Source: a virus
DNA length: 64,000 nucleotides
Direction: 5' to 3' (one strand)
IMG/VR virus record: IMGVR_UViG_3300018013_000001
Location: 6,028-70,027 of that record
Both the position numbers and the translations under genes were made by a program. Each line of letters opens with the position of its first letter. Positions within the stretch are counted from its first letter, which is position 1. Of the stretch, positions 15,304 to 30,267 are shown one piece after another. The notes beneath the pieces were generated by a model. It ran no database searches. It had not been told where the DNA came from and saw only the letters and a program-made list of their open reading frames with translations.

Positions 15304-16422
15304 ATGGCAGTTTATTACAATGAGATTGACCCATTTGCGGCGGCGTGGTTGCGGGAACTGATTAAGGCGGGACATATCGCCAAAGGGGAAGTCGATGGCC
15401 GACCCATTAAGGAAGTCAAGAGCGACGAACTTCGCGGGTTCGCCCAATGCCACTTCTTCGCCGGGATCGGCGTGTGGAGTTACGCCCTTAGAGCGGCTGG
15501 ATGGGCAGACGATACTCCCGTTTTTACAGGCAGTTGTCCCTGCCAGAGTTTCAGTGCGAGCGGGAAGCGGGGAGGCTTCTCAGATCAGCGTCACTTATGG
15601 CCCGCATGGTTCAGGCTCATCCGAGAGCTACACCCTGACACAATCTTTGGCGAGCAGGTTGCGTCCAAAGACGGCCTCGCTTGGCTCGACGTTGTTTCGG
15701 CTGATTTGGAAGGAGCGGGTTACGCCATCGGGACGGCGGATTTGTGCGCTGCGGGCTTCGGGGCGCCGCACATCCGGCAGCGATTGTACTTCGTGGCCGA
15801 GTCCGCAGGCGTTCGATTCGAGTCCTTGCGAGAAATCAGGCGAAGCAATGAGCAGGGCAATGGCTGGGAGGGCGATTCCAGGGCGCAACGGCGGTCCACC
15901 AGCGAACCTTCGCGAGAAGGCGAAGCTGGCTGCATGGCCGACGCCGAACTGTATGGACAGCCTACCAAGCGGGAATCTGGAGGAGCGCAAGACGAAAGGC
16001 GGCTGCATCAACCTGAAGGACGTGGCTCCGCTGGCGACCTGGGCGACACCGCACAGCGAGGACTCGGAATGCGTGGGAGCACATCGGGGGAACGCGGACG
16101 GGCTGCACAGCCAGAGCAAACTAACGAATTGGACATCACCAACGTCGAGGGATTGGAAGGGCGACAGTCGGAAGATGCAGGCCAAGGGACCGAAAGTGCC
16201 GGGCGGTGTAAGATTACCGGGCGAGGCTTTACTAACGGCTTCTGGGCCGACGCCGAATGGATCTGGTGCCGGGACCAAAAGTACCGGCCAGTTGAACCCG
16301 GCACATTCCCGCTGGTTACAGGGGCTACCAACCGTGTGGGACGATTGCGCGGCTATGGTAATTCCCTTACGGCGCCGGTCGCGGAAGAGTTTATAAGAGC
16401 ATACATGGAGCTCAATCGATGA
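15304..16422 (+). CDS. DNA (cytosine-5)-methyltransferase, alpha polypeptide
   Basis: YYNEID, FFAGIG (motif I), GSCPCQSFS (IV), GEQV (VI), PHIRQRLYFV (VIII), RLRGYGNS (X). Confidence 0.9.
   Translation: MAVYYNEIDPFAAAWLRELIKAGHIAKGEVDGRPIKEVKSDELRGFAQCHFFAGIGVWSYALRAAGWADDTPVFTGSCPCQSFSASGKRGGFSDQRHLWPAWFRLIRELHPDTIFGEQVASKDGLAWLDVVSADLEGAGYAIGTADLCAAGFGAPHIRQRLYFVAESAGVRFESLREIRRSNEQGNGWEGDSRAQRRSTSEPSREGEAGCMADAELYGQPTKRESGGAQDERRLHQPEGRGSAGDLGDTAQRGLGMRGSTSGERGRAAQPEQTNELDITNVEGLEGRQSEDAGQGTESAGRCKITGRGFTNGFWADAEWIWCRDQKYRPVEPGTFPLVTGATNRVGRLRGYGNSLTAPVAEEFIRAYMELNR
15395..16396 (+). CDS. Overprinted C5-methyltransferase beta polypeptide (alternative frame; true start uncertain)
   Basis: 333-codon open frame nested in the methyltransferase gene, with SLASRL...GSTLFRLIWKERVTPSGR, W(P/A/T)(S/T)P repeats and GQLNPAHSRWLQGLPTVWD (motif IX-like). 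Confidence 0.7.
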   Translation: MADPLRKSRATNFAGSPNATSSPGSACGVTPLERLDGQTILPFLQAVVPARVSVRAGSGEASQISVTYGPHGSGSSESYTLTQSLASRLRPKTASLGSTLFRLIWKERVTPSGRRICALRASGRRTSGSDCTSWPSPQAFDSSPCEKSGEAMSRAMAGRAIPGRNGGPPANLREKAKLAAWPTPNCMDSLPSGNLEERKTKGGCINLKDVAPLATWATPHSEDSECVGAHRGNADGLHSQSKLTNWTSPTSRDWKGDSRKMQAKGPKVPGGVRLPGEALLTASGPTPNGSGAGTKSTGQLNPAHSRWLQGLPTVWDDCAAMVIPLRRRSRKSL

Positions 16423-24006: not shown

Positions 24007-24930
24007 GTGGTAAAACGCAAGGCAATGAAGCATAAGCCGATCACGCATCTCAAAGACTTGCATGCTGATCCGCGCAACGCTCGACTCCACGACAAGCGCA
24101 ACATCGGCATGATTGAGCAATCGCTTGAGCAGTATGGTGCCGCGCGATCAATCGTGATAGATGAAACCGGCCAGATTATCGCTGGGCACGGAGTTCTAGA
24201 AGGTGCCGCCAACGTGGGGATCGAAAAGGTGATTTCTGTAGAGGCTACCGGCAACGAGATCGTGGCCGTGGTACGCCGTGGCCTGACGCCGAAGCAGAAA
24301 GCGGAGTTGGCGATTGCCGATAACAGAGCATCAGATTTGAGCGAGATGGACCCTGCAATGCTGAAGTCTCTTTCCGATGAAGGGCTGGCCGATCTTGACA
24401 AGTTCTTCTTCCCGGAGGAATTGACGGCGCTCTTTGCCAATGCTCTCACGGAAGGCGACGCTGAGCACATCACGCCCGAAGAAGCGCACAAGACGCTGGC
24501 GGAGAGGTTCATTGTGCCTCCGTTCTCCGTGTTGGATGCCCGGCAGGGCTATTGGCAGGACCGCAAGCGGGCTTGGCTAGCACTGGGGATTCAGAGTGAA
24601 CTGGGACGCAGGGAAACGAACTGCCCTGGCAGCCCTGGCGATAAGCGTGGCCCGGAGTGGAAACATTTCGCAGGTGACAAACAAACAAACAAAGCCAAAC
24701 CTTCAAGGGCGGAGCACTATTCAGAGGCGGCGAATTCAGCGACCCGATTGACGCCAAGAACGCCTTCGGAAAGCGGATTGCAGAGAGAGAGAGAGAGAGA
24801 GAATATCAGCCTTCAAGAGCCAAGGGCGGCTAAACGAATTTCAGCATCGCCGGGCGGTTCACCAAGGCCAGCGGCAGACTACAGCAAAAGGCAGCGGGGT
24901 GATGGAAGGGGAAGGCCGATAGATGGGTAA
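24007..24930 (+). CDS. ParB/Srx-like N-terminal domain plus N-terminal part of a phage DNA methyltransferase
   Basis: PRNARLH...SLEQYG..RSIVID...IAGHG...ADNR, then LAERFIVPPFSVLDARQGYWQDRKRAWLALGIQSELGR. Confidence 0.8.
   Translation: MVKRKAMKHKPITHLKDLHADPRNARLHDKRNIGMIEQSLEQYGAARSIVIDETGQIIAGHGVLEGAANVGIEKVISVEATGNEIVAVVRRGLTPKQKAELAIADNRASDLSEMDPAMLKSLSDEGLADLDKFFFPEELTALFANALTEGDAEHITPEEAHKTLAERFIVPPFSVLDARQGYWQDRKRAWLALGIQSELGRRETNCPGSPGDKRGPEWKHFAGDKQTNKAKPSRAEHYSEAANSATRLTPRTPSESGLQRERERENISLQEPRAAKRISASPGGSPRPAADYSKRQRGDGRGRPIDG
24678..24693 (+). repeat. (CAAA)4 microsatellite inside CDS
   Basis: Directly read. Confidence 0.85.
24782..24801 (+). repeat. (AG)10 microsatellite inside CDS
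   Basis: Directly read. Confidence 0.95.
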
Positions 24931-25923
24931 GAACGCGCGGTGTTTCGGGCAAGATCTGATGCGGGGAGAGAATGCGAAATTTAACCTGGGTCGTAGGCAG
25001 GCAGGCAGGCAGGCAGGCAGCTTGACGATACAAGCCAGCGAATTCTGAAAGGTGGAAGAAAGGCAATGGCCCGAACTTGGTCCGCATCCCCGAACGCTTT
25101 AGCGGAAAGAATTGAACGACTGAAGCCGGGGGAAGAATATCTTGAGACAGTATATGGTGCCGATGGGCAGCCAACCGGCACGAGCATATTCGATGCCACC
25201 CTCTGTGAATTGATCTATCGCTGGTTTTGCCCTCCCAAGAGCAAAGTACTCGACCCCTTCGCTGGGGGGAGTGTGCGTGGAATAGCGGCGGGCATCTTGG
25301 GCCTTGATTACGTGGGAATCGAGCTATCAAAGGGCCAGCTTGAGGCCAACCGAAAGCAAGCAAAGGATATTCTGAGTACTGGGGCGAACGGCTGGGCGGG
25401 AAAGAAAAGCTTTGGTCGAGTGCAGTGGATTGAAGGCGACGCCCTGAAAGCAGCGGTCCTCGCGCCGGGTAGCTACGATCTCATCTTCTCCCGTCCACCT
25501 TATGGGGATTTGGAGGTTTATTCGGATGATCCGCGCGATCTCTCCACAATGCCCCACGATAAATTCCTGGAGGCATACCGCCAGGTGATCCGCGTCTCTT
25601 GCGGAATGCTGAAGCCTAATCGCTTTGCCTGCTTCGTGGTGGGAGATTATCGTGACAAGCAGGGCTTTTACCGAAACTTCGTGAGCGATACGATTGCAGC
25701 TTTTGAATCAGCCCACATGAAGCTCTATAACGAAGCTATTTTGGTGACGGCGGTGGGAAGTCTGCCCATCCGCATCGGGACGGCCTTTGGGAAGTACCGC
25801 AAGTTGGGAAAGACCCATCAAAATGTGCTGGTGTTCTATAATGGCGATGTGCGGGAAATCCCAAAGGAATTTCCTGAGATTGAAGTTGTTGAGTTGGCAT
25901 CTGCCTCGATAGAAGAATCGTAA
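24923..25923 (+). CDS. DNA amino-methyltransferase, frameshifted at the (AGGC)6 tract (catalytic ORF 25066-25923)
   Basis: ATG 24923 overlaps the upstream stop and reads MGKNARCFGQDLMRGE in frame 2. After the repeat, frame 1 reads LDDTSQRIL...GTSIFD..LCELIYRWF...VLDPFAGGSVRG...GIEL...FSRPPY..LEVYS...KTHQNVLVF. Confidence 0.75.
24995..25020 (+). repeat. (AGGC)6-AG microsatellite
   Basis: Directly read. Confidence 0.95.
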
Positions 25924-25985: not shown

Positions 25986-26594
25986 ATGGCCCCGCGCAAG
26001 CTCGACCTGAGAACCCGCCAGCGACTAATGAAGTCGAGGATGGGGAAGGCGCCCAAGCGCCAGCCTCCCAAGGTCAAGAAACCTGTCGGCAGGCCGCCCA
26101 TGTACAGCAAAGACAAGGCGGCTCGCATCTGCATCGAGATCGCCACGACGACCCGCAGCCTGAAGGACATCTGCGACAGCAATCCTACCTTTCCAGACCC
26201 AAGGACAGTTTATAAATGGCTTTCCTTGAATGAAGAGTTCAGGCAGATGTATCAATCAGCCAAGCAGGATCAGGCTCAGATTCTGGCTGACGAGCTGATC
26301 GCGATAGCCGACACTCCCAAGCACGGGCAAGTCATAACGGCGTGGCCCGGTCAGAAGGATAGGGCCGGGAATCCCAAGCCAAAAGAGATCAAGGTTGCCG
26401 ACATGATCGAGCACCGACGCCTTCAGATCGAGACGCGGCGCTGGCTGCTCTCAAAGCTCAGGCCGAGGGAGTATGGCGACAAGATCGAGGTGACTGAGGG
26501 AAGCGACCCACTGCAAGAGCTTCTGGACGCATGGCGCGAGGAGCACGCTCAGCAGGTGAAAAAGGAACAATCCAGTGTCAAGCCAGCGACTTAA
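25986..26594 (+). CDS. terS: Terminase small subunit
   Basis: GRPPMYS...ICIEIA...SL..IC...P...TVYKWL...ADELIAIAD...RLQIETRRWLLSKL.P..YGDK. Confidence 0.9.
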   Translation: MAPRKLDLRTRQRLMKSRMGKAPKRQPPKVKKPVGRPPMYSKDKAARICIEIATTTRSLKDICDSNPTFPDPRTVYKWLSLNEEFRQMYQSAKQDQAQILADELIAIADTPKHGQVITAWPGQKDRAGNPKPKEIKVADMIEHRRLQIETRRWLLSKLRPREYGDKIEVTEGSDPLQELLDAWREEHAQQVKKEQSSVKPAT

Positions 26595-28725
26595 CTTCGG
26601 AGAGAGACTTGGAAGGTTCGCCAAAACCCCTCCCGAAGAAGACTGCAAGCTCAGCATCCTAGAAGGCTCCGTCCGGTCAGGCAAAACTTGGGCACAGCAT
26701 GCTAAGATTCTTTGGGGCTGCCGGTACAACGTCGCCGGATGGAAGGTTCTCACTGGAGTAACCAAAGACACCGTTTTCAAGAATGTGCTCAACGATCTGT
26801 TCTCTTTGATCGGTCCCCACAGGTACTCTTACAACCATCAATCCGGGCTGCTGAGAATCGACCGCTCGACATGGACGGTGATGGGAGCGAAGGACGAGGG
26901 CTCGGAGAAGTTCATCCGCGGGTTGACCGTTGGTTACGTGGTCTGCGACGAGCTCTCGCTGATGCCCTTCGAATTCCTTCAAATGCTCATCACGCGCATG
27001 TCGCCGGAGGGGGCGCGGCTCTACGGCAGCACCAACGCTGACACGCCTCTTCATCCTCTGAGGACAGAGATCCTGGACAACCAGAAGCTGACGGACGCCG
27101 GGCTGCTGTACTCGATGCATTGCACGATGGACGATAATCCGAATCTCACGGAAGAGTACAAAAAATCTCAGGAGCTTCTGTACACTGGGCTTTTCTATCA
27201 GCGCTACATCAAGGGCTTGTGGGTGATGGCCGAGGGCGTGATCTACAGAGACGCGTGGAAAGACGAGAGCACGTTCACGGACAAAGACTTGCCTGTCGGC
27301 TTGATGTGGGGCGGACAGACTCGTGAGCGCGTTATCTCGGTCGATTACGGAACGGTGAACCCGAACGTGTTTCTGGATTGGCGCGATGATGGAGTGACGG
27401 CCTGGTGCTACAATGAAAAACGTTGGGATTCCGCCAAAGAGATGAAACAGAAGACGGATTCTGAGCTTGCCGACGACTTGTACGAGTTCACGGAGCATGA
27501 CCAATCTCCTCAGATCGTGGTCGATCCCAGCGCGGCCAGCTTCAAGCAGGAGCTGACGAACCGAGGCTGGTGGGTGACGGATGCCGTGAACGACGTTCAG
27601 TCTGGCATTTCAAAAACTTCCACCGCGCTGGCCAAAGGTGTGATAAGGTTTCACCGTGACAACTGCAAGGCGACGATCGCCGAGTTCCAAACATACGCCT
27701 GGGACCCTAAGAGGGCGCTGCGCGGGATCGAGGAGCCAATTAAATCTGGCGATCATGGATGTTTTATAGCAGGAACGAAAATCATGACTCCTGATGGCGA
27801 AAGAAATATTGAAGAGTTCCGTGCCGGAGATCGTGTCCTTACTCCCCTCGGTCAGTGTAAAGTCCTTACAGTCCGAGAAATTCCCGACCAGCAGATTGTC
27901 GAGTGGCATCGCTTGCGAGGACTGCCGAATCATCCAATCGCTACGAGAAAAGGCTGGACAAGGATTGATGCCACGAGATATAATGAGCAAGTATGCGAGT
28001 GGAATCCAGAACATTCAACGGTATCATTTTCAGGCGCTATCCAGAAGCTAAAGACTGGTCTAGCCGCAATTATTTCAGGCCGAGCCAGGTTCATGGTCGT
28101 AAGAGAGTGGAGAGCCTTCACCGGGAAGTGTGGAAAAAATATCATGGTGCTATTCCAAAAGGCTATGATGTTCATCACGCGGATGATGATACCGGAAACA
28201 ATGACATCACCAATCTGGAATTGTTGCCCGGGCCTATTCATGATTCGCTTTCTGGAAAGAAAGCATCTCATGATTTCGAGCACCTTGCCAGAATACGGCC
28301 ACTGGCTAAAGCATGGCACGCATCACCAGAAGGATTGGACTGGCATCGAGATCATGGGAAAGAAGCGATGCAAAAACGCAAGGCTGTTGGATTCATCTGT
28401 CAGAACTGCGGTGCGCATTTTCTTTCGAAACAGCGCGGCGAATGCGCTAAATTCTGCTCTAACAAGTGCAAGTCGGCTGCCAGGCGTAAATCGGGCGTGG
28501 ACGATGTTCCCAAGATTTGCGCGACATGCAGCGAGACTTTCCTCGCTAATAAATATCAAAGAATCCTCAATTGTCCAAAGTGCCGTTAAAGATGCTGGCA
28601 GAGCAAGTGTCTTTGCACTGAGAACGGAGCATGGGTGCTATTATGCGAATGGCATCCTTGTTAGCAATTGTGACGCGGCCAGATATTTCTGTGCCACCAA
28701 GATTCCGGTCTGGCGGCTGATGTGA
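26575..28725 (+). CDS. terL: Terminase large subunit containing an intein
   Basis: EGSVRSGKT Walker A, VCDEL Walker B, SVDYGTVNP, VDPSA, and DHG-[intein]-CDAARY. Confidence 0.92.
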   Translation: MSSQRLNFGERLGRFAKTPPEEDCKLSILEGSVRSGKTWAQHAKILWGCRYNVAGWKVLTGVTKDTVFKNVLNDLFSLIGPHRYSYNHQSGLLRIDRSTWTVMGAKDEGSEKFIRGLTVGYVVCDELSLMPFEFLQMLITRMSPEGARLYGSTNADTPLHPLRTEILDNQKLTDAGLLYSMHCTMDDNPNLTEEYKKSQELLYTGLFYQRYIKGLWVMAEGVIYRDAWKDESTFTDKDLPVGLMWGGQTRERVISVDYGTVNPNVFLDWRDDGVTAWCYNEKRWDSAKEMKQKTDSELADDLYEFTEHDQSPQIVVDPSAASFKQELTNRGWWVTDAVNDVQSGISKTSTALAKGVIRFHRDNCKATIAEFQTYAWDPKRALRGIEEPIKSGDHGCFIAGTKIMTPDGERNIEEFRAGDRVLTPLGQCKVLTVREIPDQQIVEWHRLRGLPNHPIATRKGWTRIDATRYNEQVCEWNPEHSTVSFSGAIQKLKTGLAAIISGRARFMVVREWRAFTGKCGKNIMVLFQKAMMFITRMMIPETMTSPIWNCCPGLFMIRFLERKHLMISSTLPEYGHWLKHGTHHQKDWTGIEIMGKKRCKNARLLDSSVRTAVRIFFRNSAANALNSALTSASRLPGVNRAWTMFPRFARHAARLSSLINIKESSIVQSAVKDAGRASVFALRTEHGCYYANGILVSNCDAARYFCATKIPVWRLM
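27760..28668 (+). mobile_element. Intein (303 aa) in the TerL nuclease active-site motif
   Basis: Begins CFIAGTKIMTPDGERNIEE..GDRVLT, has block B (NHPI) and ends VFALRTEHGCYYANGILVSN followed by extein Cys. Removal restores DHG-CDA. Confidence 0.92.
27993..28589 (+). CDS. HNH homing endonuclease with C-terminal zinc fingers, nested out of frame within the intein
   Basis: LHREVWKKYHGAIPKGYDVHHADDDTGNNDITNLELL (HNH_3-like), then CQNC, CSNKC, CATC, CPKC. Confidence 0.85.
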   Translation: MRVESRTFNGIIFRRYPEAKDWSSRNYFRPSQVHGRKRVESLHREVWKKYHGAIPKGYDVHHADDDTGNNDITNLELLPGPIHDSLSGKKASHDFEHLARIRPLAKAWHASPEGLDWHRDHGKEAMQKRKAVGFICQNCGAHFLSKQRGECAKFCSNKCKSAARRKSGVDDVPKICATCSETFLANKYQRILNCPKCR

Positions 28726-28734
28726 GGCGTTGAC

Positions 28735-30267
28735 ATGCCGAAAGCCAAGAAGCACAAGAAGCAAACTCCCTCCAAGAAATCTCCAGCCATCGTTCAATCT
28801 CTTGATTCCAGGGACGGCCTGTCCGTTGGCTTCGATTACTTCCGCAACCTCGCGGCCAGGATGGGCTATGGCACGCCGTCGCTTGCCGAGGGCACAGAAT
28901 ACGAGATGGTCAGGCTGAGCAACGATTACTGGCTCATGCTGACCCTGTACCGAAACCATTGGATCTCGCGGCGCATCGTCGATCTTCCTTCTGACGACAT
29001 GACCAAGTCGTGGTGCCATCTCACTTCCCAGCTCCCCCCTGATGACATACAGAAGTTTGATCGCGTGGTAGAGCGGACGTTCACGCCGCTGAAGATCAAC
29101 CAAGCTATCAAATGGTCTAGACTGTACGGCGGTGCAGGTGCGCTGATTCTCGTCAAGGGGCATGAGAGTAAGCTGGCGGAGCCCCTGGACTTGGACGAGG
29201 TGAATCCGGGAAGTTATCTGGGCTTGATTCCCTTTGACAGGTGGAGCGGAATCTGGCCGAAGGGGAACGTTGCTCAGGACATCGAGCGTCCGCTCGAATG
29301 GGGATTGCCTGAAATGTATGAAGTTACTCCGCCGGGCGGATCGGTCACGTATGACGTTCACACGAGCCGCATCCTCAGATTCACCGGACCGGAAGTTCCG
29401 AAACCCGAGAACCAAGCGCAACTGTACTGGGGCATCTCCGTTCTTGAGATTGTGTACGAGGAACTGCGCAAGCGGGACAACGCCTCGTGGTCGATCCTGC
29501 AACTTCTTTTTCGAGCTCAGATTCTTGCTCAGCGCAACAAGGAACTAGCCCAACTTTTGTCGGGCGTAGGCATGAGCCAAAAGGCGCTCCAGATGTTCGA
29601 GGCGCGCATGAACGCTCAGAACCAGCTCCTGTCGAACCAATCCATGCTCATTCTGGGAGAGGACGGCGAACTTCAGAGCCATCAGTTCACGTTCAGTGGT
29701 CTGGCCGAAGTTTACGCTCAGTTTCAGATGGATGTGGCAGGAGCAGCGGAGATTCCGGTCACGCGGTTGTTCGGGCGCACGATCACGGGCCTCGGGCAGT
29801 CGAACGATGCCGACGAGCGCATCTACGAGGAGAAAATCGCGCACGAGCAGCAGGACAAGCTGAAGCCGCAGCTCACCAAGCTCTATCCCGTGATCTGCAT
29901 GAGCGTGCTGGGGGAAGTGCCGGACGACCTGGACTTCAAGTTTCCGTCTGTGCGCGTGTTGACCGAGGAGGACAAGTCGGAGATGACGACCAAGGCGTCA
30001 GCTCCCATCATCGCCTCATACAACGCTGGCATCACGGGTCGCAAGACGACTCTCAAGGAGCTTCGCGAGCTATCCGACAAGACGGGCGTGTTCACCAACA
30101 TCACGGACGAGCAGATCGACAAGGCAGAAGAGGAGCCGGAGCTGCCGGGAGAAGGCATGGAGGGGGAGTTTAGCCGGGTCAACCCGCAGCGCGAGGAGAG
30201 GAAGCTGGCGCAAGGAGCGATGGATTCGGAACCATCGAAGACCGACACTGTTGAGACGCGAGATTGA
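28735..30267 (+). CDS. Portal protein (DUF1073-type)
   Basis: LYRNHWISRRIVD, WSRLYGG, WGISVLE, AGAAEIPVTRLFG; follows TerL. Confidence 0.9.
   Translation: MPKAKKHKKQTPSKKSPAIVQSLDSRDGLSVGFDYFRNLAARMGYGTPSLAEGTEYEMVRLSNDYWLMLTLYRNHWISRRIVDLPSDDMTKSWCHLTSQLPPDDIQKFDRVVERTFTPLKINQAIKWSRLYGGAGALILVKGHESKLAEPLDLDEVNPGSYLGLIPFDRWSGIWPKGNVAQDIERPLEWGLPEMYEVTPPGGSVTYDVHTSRILRFTGPEVPKPENQAQLYWGISVLEIVYEELRKRDNASWSILQLLFRAQILAQRNKELAQLLSGVGMSQKALQMFEARMNAQNQLLSNQSMLILGEDGELQSHQFTFSGLAEVYAQFQMDVAGAAEIPVTRLFGRTITGLGQSNDADERIYEEKIAHEQQDKLKPQLTKLYPVICMSVLGEVPDDLDFKFPSVRVLTEEDKSEMTTKASAPIIASYNAGITGRKTTLKELRELSDKTGVFTNITDEQIDKAEEEPELPGEGMEGEFSRVNPQREERKLAQGAMDSEPSKTDTVETRD

What the first reader, a model, noticed from the sequence alone, without database searches (positions are those of the whole stretch)
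27760..28668. TerL intein whose homing endonuclease is a separate gene nested in a different reading frame
Seen: the intein frame is open for 303 codons with canonical splicing ends (C1, block B His, terminal SN followed by Cys). Its central ~200 aa look like off-frame text (Met/Trp-rich, no LAGLIDADG or HNH motif). Frame 3 over the same DNA (27993-28589, own ATG and TAA) encodes a clear HNH endonuclease with zinc fingers. Established: intein endonucleases are normally in-frame domains of the intein. Inference: a free-standing HNH gene invaded a mini-intein and the intein frame was kept stop-free, so about 600 nt are dual-coding, and splicing and homing are expressed separately. Splicing is required because the intein interrupts the DHxCD nuclease motif. 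This architecture is at least rare; I cannot confirm it is unreported.
Basis: partly seen in the sequence, partly recalled or inferred. Interest (0 to 1): 0.85.

Follow-up and report, generated by a model that had tools for sequence, protein, structure and literature searches.

The report
Terminase intein with overlapping out-of-frame HNH
A phage DNA-packaging gene carries a self-splicing protein insert (an intein), and the middle of that insert also encodes, one base out of step, a complete HNH nuclease gene that probably spreads the insert; the layout is real and widespread, but layouts of this kind are already in print.

Summary
terL (26575-28725) carries a 303-codon intein (27760-28668). 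An intact 198-aa HNH_3/zinc-ribbon gene (27993-28589) lies inside it in another frame.

It is not an assembly error. An identical intein sits in a second terL background (L001). A natural intein-less allele exists (L002, and a contig of run X23). Contigs of four runs show no indel.

The open intein frame is only modestly unlikely in this window alone (P about 0.06). Comparison decides it: 67 of the 80 IMG/VR relatives of the HNH kept by the search (38-48% identity, one of them the window's own intein) lie in the same relative frame inside a terL intein at the same site. So do three cultured phages.

Only the HNH frame is conserved (42.7% against 22.5%, null 21.2%) and only it folds (pLDDT 93.5 against under 50).

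The kind is known: Brucella phage terL (PMC4422536) and preprints of 2025 and 2026. This scan also noted it on other DNA before (29 findings hold the search words). I file it as a new member of a known kind, of low to moderate interest.

The parts
26575..28725 (+). terL precursor ORF (716 aa): N-extein 26575-27759, intein 27760-28668, C-extein 28669-28722, stop 28723-28725
   Evidence: ORF. (weak Terminase_6N and Terminase_3 hits). (intein-less homologue L002: Terminase_6N E 1.5e-11). (boundaries from the intein-less allele).
27760..28014 (+). Intein N-terminal splicing domain (intein aa 1-85; Cys1, block B ...LPNHPI...)
   Evidence: Hint_2 E 2.9e-8. (pLDDT 89-97 over residues 1-80). (Foldseek: gp41-1 intein E 2.3e-4 and other mini-inteins). 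(conserved columns).
28015..28557 (+). Intein-frame linker (about aa 86-266): the off-frame reading of the HNH gene, kept stop-free but otherwise unconstrained
   Evidence: pLDDT under 50 for residues 86-241 and 243-266. (identity among relatives 22.5%, against a 21.2% null). (no Pfam hit).
28558..28668 (+). Intein C-terminal splicing domain (about aa 267-303; ...VFALRTEHGCYYANGILVSN), followed by the +1 Cys at 28669-28671
   Evidence: pLDDT 79-97 over residues 271-303. (conserved VYNLTV..HEFFANGxLVHN block in relatives).
27993..28589 (+). Overprinted HNH_3/zinc-ribbon endonuclease gene (198 aa, frame 3; the terL frame is +1 relative to it); 597 nt of dual coding
   Evidence: PF13392 E 4.4e-14. 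(70 relatives; 23 columns invariant in a 27-sequence alignment that includes the window). (pLDDT 93.5). (I-HmuI Z 6.8).
27981..27986 (+). TAA TGA in the HNH frame, two codons before its ATG; they close that frame against read-in from upstream
   Evidence: sequence. (every one of 63 relatives has a stop in the HNH frame 0-186 nt upstream of the match start).
27955..27984 (+). Sigma-70-like promoter match TGGACA-18-TATAAT (11 of 12), ending 8 nt before the HNH ATG; candidate leaderless transcript (inferred)
   Evidence: (promoter-like score of 9 or more in 8 of 63 relatives, against 24 of 2053 control ATGs).

Best explanation
A class-1 type mini-intein sits in the D-H-G|C-D-A-A-R-Y stretch of the TerL nuclease domain. 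A gene of a free-standing HNH_3/zinc-ribbon homing-endonuclease family occupies the intein's endonuclease-insertion loop, on the same strand but one base out of step.

Ribosomes that translate terL read through the HNH gene in the wrong frame. This makes a linker of about 180 aa with no predicted structure between the two halves of the Hint fold. The Hint domain then splices itself out and restores TerL (inferred).

The HNH is translated separately from its own ATG at 27993. In this phage the likely route is a short-leader or leaderless transcript from an internal promoter (inferred). The enzyme then cuts intein-less terL alleles, and repair copies intein plus HNH into them (homing; inferred from population data).

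Selection on the essential terL keeps the intein frame free of stops. Selection for homing keeps the HNH frame intact.
For: Anatomy.

Precise insertion: the intein-less allele L002 lacks exactly the 909 nt. An intein-less contig occurs in the same run (X23) as the intein-bearing form.

Recent transfer: L001 equals L002 over about 2.1 kb upstream (3 differences). From 27693 it equals the window (0 differences) through the intein and to the contig end. The switch lies about 70 nt before the insertion site.

Conservation of the layout: 67 of 80 IMG/VR loci have the +1 frame open across the HNH and continuous with TerL-N/intein-N and intein-C/CDAxRY. Frame +2 is never open. The same holds in Acinetobacter phage Highwayman, Tetrasphaera phage TJE1 and Clostridium phage phiCDHM19, which are viable isolates.

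Controls: the 12 non-nested members carry 3-12 stops in frame +1, mean 7.0.

Which frame is selected: HNH-frame identity is 42.7%. Intein-frame identity is 22.5%, against 21.2 +/- 0.1% after synonymous shuffling.

Folds: intein residues 1-85 and 267-303 are confident and intein-like, and residues 86-266 have pLDDT under 50. The HNH has pLDDT 93.5 and its best solved match is I-HmuI (Z 6.8, rmsd 3.5, 75 residues aligned).

Expression signals: SD-like 4-mers precede 28 of 63 HNH starts, against 155 of 2053 control ATGs. Promoter-like sites of score 9 or more precede 8 of 63, against 24 of 2053, and the window is one of them.
Against: No experiment or RNA data is available: splicing, HNH translation and cleavage are all inferred.

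The window alone is weak statistically (P about 0.06).

This intein has Leu instead of the block-B Thr, and Ser instead of the penultimate His.

The HNH ends about 10-15 aa earlier than most relatives.

Only one recombination breakpoint is seen because the L001 contig ends. Ordinary mosaic recombination could therefore give the same pattern.

The promoter match is a consensus hit. The region as a whole has 3 sites against 1.4 +/- 1.2 in shuffles.

The window's HNH start has no SD-like motif.
Confidence: 0.82

Rival explanations
1. Assembly or sequencing artefact: two compensating indels hide an ordinary in-frame HNH intein.
For: None found.
Against: L001, from another data set and another terL background, has the intein with no base difference. 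Contigs of four runs, three of them not flagged as a possible source, show no inserted or missing letters (table 4). In the HNH frame TAA and TGA lie two codons before the ATG. 67 of 80 independent relatives have the same frame relation.
Confidence: 0.01
2. The HNH is made as part of the intein polypeptide by two programmed ribosomal frameshifts (-1 near 27990, +1 near 28590).
For: The two frames overlap on one strand. No SD-like motif precedes the window's HNH ATG.
Against: It needs two efficient shifts in an essential gene. Stops close the HNH frame 0-186 nt upstream of the match start in all 63 relatives. The ATG aligns with the N-terminus of free-standing family members. I noticed no slippery heptamer near 27987-27993 when reading, but ran no formal search. 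SD-like or promoter-like signals are enriched at the HNH starts.
Confidence: 0.03
3. The nested HNH is mainly a terminase-associated packaging cofactor, like the HNH proteins encoded next to terminase genes in cos phages, and not a homing endonuclease.
For: Every family member examined lies in or next to terminase genes: inside terL, directly downstream of terL (L016, L018, L021, L069, L078, L083), or upstream of terS in Acinetobacter phage BP10. PMC4422536 (passages) raises a functional link between such HNH proteins and terminase.
Against: L002 has neither intein nor HNH in the stretch held (terS-like gene, terL, portal), though it is identical to L001 over about 2.1 kb upstream of the site. 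Intein-bearing and intein-less alleles coexist in run X23. The best solved match is the homing endonuclease I-HmuI. Free-standing homing endonuclease genes are expected to lie beside their target gene (established knowledge, recalled).
Confidence: 0.08
4. Relic: the intein still splices, but the HNH no longer acts and is only coasting.
For: The HNH C-terminus is shorter than in relatives. Stop-avoidance alone could be explained by selection on terL.
Against: The window keeps the residue shared by all 26 relatives at each of the 23 invariant columns, including the His/Asn and all Cys pairs. Purifying selection is visible in the HNH frame across the family. The same intein occurs, base for base, in two terL backgrounds and across many runs of 2017-2025. 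Alleles with and without the intein coexist.
Confidence: 0.1

Closest known systems
Brucella phage Tb/Pr terL intein with an out-of-frame HNH gene (GenBank JN939331 ORF07 'intein present' and ORF08; PMC4422536, Virol J 2015)
   Same: The host gene is the same (terL). The intein ORF is contiguous, and a separate HNH ORF is fully nested on the same strand in another frame. [quoted passage not shown]
   Different: The insertion site differs: the ATPase domain (...GNRAD|C...HN|CVIIDDP) rather than the nuclease motif. The relative frame differs: the HNH starts at +1 of terL there and at +2 here (coordinates). The HNH build differs: zinc ribbons come first and the HNH last, and BLASTP finds only short local matches (best E 0.003).
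[quoted passage not shown]
   Same: The intein is contiguous and the endonuclease is encoded on the same strand in another frame. The in-frame middle is unstructured in AlphaFold models. The proposed origin is invasion of an intein by a free-standing endonuclease gene. Many cases are in terL (abstract, sections 8 and 15, passages).
   Different: The endonuclease family there is Endo VII-like (IPR004211), not HNH_3 with zinc ribbons. tblastn with the window's HNH found 54 phage records at E up to 1e-3. None was from a Mycobacterium, Gordonia, Arthrobacter or Microbacterium phage, and the only actinobacterial host was Tetrasphaera. The authors call the architecture rare; here it holds in 67 of 80 relatives.
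Cyanobacterial dnaX intein with an out-of-frame LAGLIDADG endonuclease (bioRxiv 10.64898/2026.09.14.751524; first proposed by Gorbalenya 1998, which I know only as cited there)
   Same: The endonuclease frame overlaps the intein frame. Purifying selection acts on the endonuclease frame and is relaxed on the intein frame. A secondary invasion of a mini-intein is proposed (abstract and section 17).
   Different: It is a cellular gene (dnaX) with a LAGLIDADG enzyme, not a phage terL with an HNH.
'Fractured genes': split inteins with a free-standing endonuclease gene between the halves (Dassa et al. 2009, PMC2677866)
   Same: A free-standing endonuclease gene sits at the intein's endonuclease-insertion point, and the 3' end of that gene overlaps the downstream intein-C ORF. 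One locus there is a terminase (passages). Six relatives found here are of exactly this split type (L064, L071, L072, L073, L079, L081).
   Different: In the window the intein frame has no stop, so one precursor is made and cis-splicing is expected. Their endonucleases were GIY-YIG and Vsr-like, not HNH.
ShiLan-domain 'hidden' out-of-frame HNH insertion in a phage methylase (Arsenault et al. 2025, PMC11855218)
   Same: An HNH gene is read out of frame inside a host ORF that stays stop-free. Uninvaded alleles carry Pro at the residue after the site, as L002 does here (abstract, section 19, passages).
   Different: That element has no splicing domain. The window has a clear Hint fold at both ends.

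Membership tests
Intein (class 1, Hint fold) | Hint/intein splicing fold | tested here: met
   Hint_2 E 2.9e-8, above the cut-off. In the AF2 model residues 1-85 and 267-303 have pLDDT above 90. Foldseek best hits are gp41-1 intein (E 2.3e-4), Prp8 and DnaB inteins.
Intein (class 1, Hint fold) | N-terminal Cys/Ser, C-terminal Asn, and Cys/Ser/Thr at +1 | tested here: met
   C at 27760-27762, N at 28666-28668 and C at 28669-28671. C1 and N303 are invariant in 41 aligned relatives.
Intein (class 1, Hint fold) | Block B TxxH and a penultimate His | tested here: inconclusive
   The His is present (H58, invariant). The Thr is Leu here but at least 90% conserved in relatives. The penultimate residue is Ser, as in many relatives. 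Both positions are known to vary in active inteins (recalled).
Intein (class 1, Hint fold) | Precise in-frame insertion relative to an intein-less allele | tested here: met
   L002 and a contig of run X23 lack exactly the 909 nt.
Intein (class 1, Hint fold) | Protein splicing activity | not testable with these tools
   Inferred from the essential host gene and from viable cultured phages with the same layout.
HNH_3 (PF13392) homing endonucleases | HNH_3 profile match and conserved His/Asn/Cys positions | tested here: met
   52.3 bits against a cut-off of 24.8. 23 columns are invariant in the 27-sequence alignment that includes the window.
HNH_3 (PF13392) homing endonucleases | beta-beta-alpha-metal fold like solved HNH homing enzymes | tested here: met
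   Model pLDDT 93.5. I-HmuI 1u3e: Z 6.8, rmsd 3.5, 75 aligned residues, and the only row with Z of 5 or more. The profile-to-PDB match is weak (E 0.036), and Foldseek on the whole model gave nothing at E up to 0.001.
HNH_3 (PF13392) homing endonucleases | Site-specific cleavage of the element-free allele, and homing | not testable with these tools
   Indirect only: coexisting alleles with and without the intein, and an identical intein in two terL backgrounds.
Non-canonical inteins with an out-of-frame, same-strand endonuclease | Contiguous intein ORF, stop-free across a complete endonuclease ORF in another frame of the same strand | tested here: met
Non-canonical inteins with an out-of-frame, same-strand endonuclease | Same endonuclease family as a published case (Endo VII-like, or the Brucella phage HNH) | tested here: not met
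   No PhagesDB-type actinophage among 54 tblastn records. Against Brucella phage Tb ORF08 only short local BLASTP matches (best E 0.003), with a different domain order.
Split-intein 'fractured gene' | Stop codon(s) that separate intein-N and intein-C into two ORFs | tested here: not met
   The window's intein frame has no stop. Six of 80 relatives are of the split type.

The most novel reading that the evidence does not exclude
This HNH_3/zinc-ribbon lineage at the TerL D-H-x-x-D-A-x-R-Y site may be an undescribed, very large and old case of stable overprinting of a homing endonuclease on an intein.

Three states survive side by side: free-standing next to an intein-less terL, inside a split intein, and overprinted in a contiguous intein. 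The relative frame is always the same. A subset, including this phage, appears to use an internal promoter placed so that the nuclease mRNA is leaderless.

Such a lineage would allow a direct test of the model that free-standing endonuclease genes invade mini-inteins and that split inteins arise from them.
Probability: 0.4. Interest if true: 0.45.

Novelty: new member of a known kind. Interest (0 to 1): 0.3.

Why it matters
The locus shows that an essential phage gene can tolerate about 180 residues of translated 'nonsense' inside an intein, and that about 600 nt can stay dual-coding over deep divergence (HNH identity down to about 38%).

For annotation, these HNH genes are usually missed. In three cultured phages only 'terminase large subunit' is annotated over them.

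For evolution, the family holds free-standing, split and overprinted states. That bears on how inteins acquire endonucleases and how split inteins arise.

For tools, it points to mini-inteins that tolerate long unstructured inserts, and to a family of probably site-specific HNH nucleases.

None of this is new in kind.

Tried and rejected
- **DNA search of cultured phages.** blastn of terL against 50,697 phage records found nothing. Protein-level searches were needed instead.
- **The look-up of encoding contigs.** P0002's N-terminal extension looks like an intein-N tail read in frame, but this is untested.
- **In-frame versions.** A search of longer proteins found 2 among 298 candidates. Both are TerL-N/intein-N fused in frame to the HNH and end at or inside the HNH. 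No fully in-frame intein was seen. The tool itself calls such a blank weak evidence.
- **Within-gene synonymous shuffling.** For the window alone this gives P(0 stops) = 0.19. That null is too conservative, because the gene's codons are already shaped, so I also used genome-wide codon usage.
- **Foldseek with the whole HNH model.** Nothing at E up to 0.001; the model is extended and multi-domain. VIA-align was used instead.
- **RNA evidence.** No RNA holder was listed. All runs laid were contigs, so starts, strand and expression could not be read.
- **Terminators.** None were predicted in 27400-28900.
- **Intein boundary regexes.** They delimited only 47 of 63 relatives. The other 16 were left out of alignment A2, which used 40 of the 47 plus the window.
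- **Not used.** The search of protein representatives, complex prediction and the RNA tools.
- **Literature.** Searches found no paper describing this particular HNH_3/zinc-ribbon family at the terL nuclease site. Subscription journals and supplementary files were not searchable. The supplementary tables of the 2025 preprint may list related cases.
Full report
**What is there.**
The window is 64 kb of a complete 70-kb virus record with terminal repeats. Its genes lie almost all on the + strand.

- ORF 26575-28725 (716 aa) is the terminase large subunit. It gives weak Terminase_6N and Terminase_3 hits. Its intein-less homologue L002 gives Terminase_6N at E 1.5e-11.
- Residues 396-698 (27760-28668, 909 nt) begin CFIAGTKIMTPDGE and end YYANGILVSN, followed by Cys.
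- Pfam sees Hint_2 at the first 36 residues of this insert and nothing in its middle.
- In frame 3, an ATG at 27993 opens a 198-codon ORF that ends with TAA at 28589. It matches HNH_3 at E 4.4e-14.
- In that frame TAA and TGA lie two codons upstream of the ATG.

**Is it an error?**
No.

- IMG/VR holds two relatives. L001 carries the same 909 nt with no base difference, in a terL whose 5' half differs from the window at 241 positions.
- L002 is an intein-less allele. It reads ...SGDHG|PDAARY... and lacks exactly the 909 nt, with CCC (Pro) in place of TGT (Cys).
- The stretch occurs in 24 listed wetland and peat runs of 2017-2025. Of these, 21 are flagged as possible sources.
- I laid contigs of four runs, three of them unflagged. 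They show no inserted or missing letter.
- One run (X23) holds both the intein-bearing form and a contig that skips 27755 to 28672 with CGGGCCC between, which is the L002-type intein-less allele.

**Is the open frame more than chance?**
For this window alone, only modestly.

- I kept the HNH protein and drew synonymous codons from the phage's own usage. The intein frame was stop-free in 5.8% of 20,000 draws, with 2.4 stops expected.
- Only 16 dipeptides in the HNH can give a +1 stop at all.
- In other genes of the window, 4 of 145 stretches of 198 codons have an open +1 frame.
- Shuffling synonymous codons within the gene gives 0.19. That null inherits the gene's already adapted codons.

**Comparison settles it.**
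The HNH has 70 relatives with E up to 0.001 among 109 candidates. Most are 200-220 aa, 34-52% identical and cover the whole length. In a 27-sequence alignment the window's Met aligns with the family N-terminus, and 23 columns are invariant, including the His, Asn and Cys residues.

A scan of IMG/VR with this alignment found 463 relatives and returned the best 80.

- **Overprinted, 67 of 80.** This count includes L004, which is the L001 contig. The frame +1 relative to the HNH, the same relation as in the window, is open across the whole HNH gene. It is part of a long ORF, 700-900 aa where complete. That ORF reads TerL ...DH|C[FLI]xxGT...HPxW..GWxRxDxLRYGD, then about 200 off-frame residues, then VYNLTV..HEFFANGxLVHN|CDAxRY. 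Frame +2 is never open and holds a mean of 18 stops.
- **Free-standing, 6 of 80.** The HNH stands free directly downstream of an intein-less terL (L016, L018, L021, L069, L078, L083).
- **Split intein, 6 of 80.** TerL-N/intein-N, the HNH, and intein-C/TerL-C are separate ORFs (L064, L071, L072, L073, L079, L081).
- **Other, 1 of 80.** L065 follows a different terminase.

The 12 free-standing and split members carry 3-12 stops in frame +1 (mean 7.0). The family's sequence therefore does not keep that frame open by itself.

Three cultured phages show the overprinted layout under a single 'terminase large subunit' annotation: Acinetobacter phage Highwayman, Tetrasphaera phage TJE1 and Clostridium phage phiCDHM19. 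The layout is thus compatible with viable phages.

**Which frame is under selection?**
I compared 63 non-redundant overprinted genes.

- Mean pairwise amino-acid identity is 42.7% in the HNH frame and 22.5% in the intein frame.
- Thirty synonymous shuffles that keep the HNH proteins give 21.2 +/- 0.1% for the intein frame.
- The intein-frame text is therefore essentially free, apart from the absence of stops.

AlphaFold agrees.

- With 41 aligned inteins, residues 1-85 and 267-303 of the window's intein have pLDDT above 90. They match mini-inteins (gp41-1 E 2.3e-4, then Prp8 and DnaB). Residues 86-266 are below 50.
- The same DNA read as HNH gives mean pLDDT 93.5.
- The best solved match of that model is the homing endonuclease I-HmuI (Z 6.8, rmsd 3.5, 75 residues). 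The sequence-profile link to I-HmuI is weak (E 0.036).

**How it most likely works.**

- *Shown:* the anatomy, the precise insertion, and the selection pattern.
- *Inferred:* terL is translated through the HNH gene in the wrong frame. The two Hint halves fold around a floppy linker of about 180 aa and splice. The HNH is made separately and cuts intein-less terL.

Splicing is required. The site lies in the D-H-x-x-D-A-x-R-Y stretch, inside the Terminase_3C RNase-H-like match of the intein-less protein. That match covers residues 358-398 at E 1.9e-4, below Pfam's cut-off.

Evidence on separate translation of the HNH:

- A stop closes the HNH frame 0-186 nt upstream of the match start in all 63 relatives.
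- By my start-picking rule, which favours ATG, an ATG is the chosen start in 52 of 63.
- SD-like 4-mers precede 28 of 63 starts, against 155 of 2053 control ATGs in the same ORFs.
- The window has no SD-like motif. It has instead TGGACA-18-TATAAT (11 of 12) ending 8 nt before the ATG.
- Such promoter-like sites (score 9 or more, -10 element ending 6-9 nt before the start) occur at 8 of 63 HNH starts, against 24 of 2053 controls. At score 10 or more the counts are 5 of 63 against 2 of 2053.
- A leaderless or near-leaderless mRNA is therefore my best guess for this phage. It is only a consensus match.

Evidence on homing:

- L001 equals L002 over about 2.1 kb upstream (3 differences).
- From 27693 it equals the window (0 differences) through the intein and for about 230 nt beyond, to the contig end.
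- Against L002 this stretch shows 7 differences in the 67 nt before the site and 17 after it.
- This fits homing with co-conversion. Only one breakpoint is visible, so ordinary mosaic recombination is not excluded.

**Rivals.**

- *Compensating indels* are refuted (see above).
- *Double programmed frameshifting* is very unlikely. Stops lie before the ATG, the ATG aligns with the family N-terminus, and two shifts would be needed in an essential gene.
- *A packaging-cofactor role* for the HNH is suggested by its constant linkage to terminase genes. Against it, L002 lacks the HNH in the stretch held, and the two alleles coexist in one run.
- *A decaying relic* is argued against by the 23 invariant columns at which the window matches all 26 relatives, and by the identical intein in two terL backgrounds.

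**Comparison with what is known.**

- **Brucella phages.** The concept of a contiguous intein whose endonuclease is a separate gene in another frame is in print for terL. [quoted passage not shown] GenBank JN939331 annotates ORF07 'intein present' with a nested ORF08 HNH. I checked that case. Its intein is in the ATPase domain, the relative frame is the other one, and the HNH has a different domain order with only short local similarity (best E 0.003).
- **2025 preprint.** It describes out-of-frame Endo VII-like and antisense endonucleases in actinophage inteins, many in terL, and proposes invasion of inteins by free-standing endonuclease genes.
- **2026 preprint.** It shows the same for the cyanobacterial dnaX intein.
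- **Dassa et al. 2009.** They described the split-intein version.
- **Arsenault et al. 2025.** They described a hidden out-of-frame HNH without an intein, with Pro at the uninvaded +1 position, as in L002.
- **This HNH family.** The window's HNH is not detectably related to PhagesDB-type actinophage genes. Among 54 tblastn records none came from such phages.
- **Literature coverage.** My three literature searches found no description of this particular family. Supplements were closed, and subscription journals are not held.
- **Earlier in this scan.** A word search found 29 earlier findings holding the search words, on other genomes; the eight shown describe the same kind of locus. None shares this HNH sequence. 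One of them gave me the Brucella phage lead, which I then verified.

**Verdict.**
The window holds one more member of a large, widespread family of a known kind of non-canonical intein. Two things may be new beyond the literature I could see. One is the breadth and stability of this HNH_3/zinc-ribbon lineage at the terL nuclease site, with free-standing, split and overprinted states coexisting. The other is the hint of an internal promoter that would give a leaderless nuclease mRNA. Interest 0.3.

Noticed in passing
window 26500-27250 against L001/L002: terL is itself mosaic. The window differs from L001 and L002 at about 30-43% of positions in 26500-27250, but at 0-3 per 150 nt on either side (26050-26500 and 27250-27700). 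This suggests a swapped module in the ATPase domain, independent of the intein.
   Followed up: partly
L016:2971-3000, L018:2045-2074, L021:619-648: Free-standing HNH genes downstream of an intein-less terL are preceded, in the HNH frame, by short peptides such as TTRYALVM, VDAVRYAVYM and LDTMRYTVTM. These resemble the TerL 'DAxRY' motif or the intein-N motif 'LDALRYGD'. They may be remnants showing that these copies came out of inteins, or duplicated target sequence.
   Followed up: no
window 27975-27992, and the same place in relatives: The conserved intein-N motif RY(G/N)D(R/I/K) is encoded by ...TAYGGTGATAR... Read in the HNH frame, this supplies the stop codons (TGA TAG, or TAA TGA) that close the HNH frame. 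In several loci it also supplies a TATAAT box 6-9 nt before the HNH start. One stretch thus serves three readings.
   Followed up: partly
P0071 (685 aa), P0072 (428 aa): Two database proteins fuse TerL-N and intein-N in frame to this HNH family and end at or within the HNH. This is a fourth state, in which the endonuclease is fused to the N-intein half.
   Followed up: partly
run X24, contig record 10, on window 28639-28673: A 187-nt contig matches only the last 35 nt of the intein and has unlike flanks on both sides. It looks like the C-terminal end of a different intein in another terL in the same wetland sample.
   Followed up: no
phage records MG592603/4, MG592610, NC_055735/6 (Vibrio phages 1.238.A/B and 1.245.O): Distant tblastn matches of the HNH (24-26% identity, E about 5e-4) lie under features annotated 'terminase large subunit' or 'hint domain protein'. 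These are probably more distant overprinted cases.
   Followed up: no
window 15304-16422 and 24600-25120: Other first-reader notes on this window mention a methyltransferase with a second frame open for 333 codons, and microsatellites in a ParB-methyltransferase locus. One search does list overlapping ORFs 15304..16422 and 15395..16396 on the + strand.
   Followed up: no
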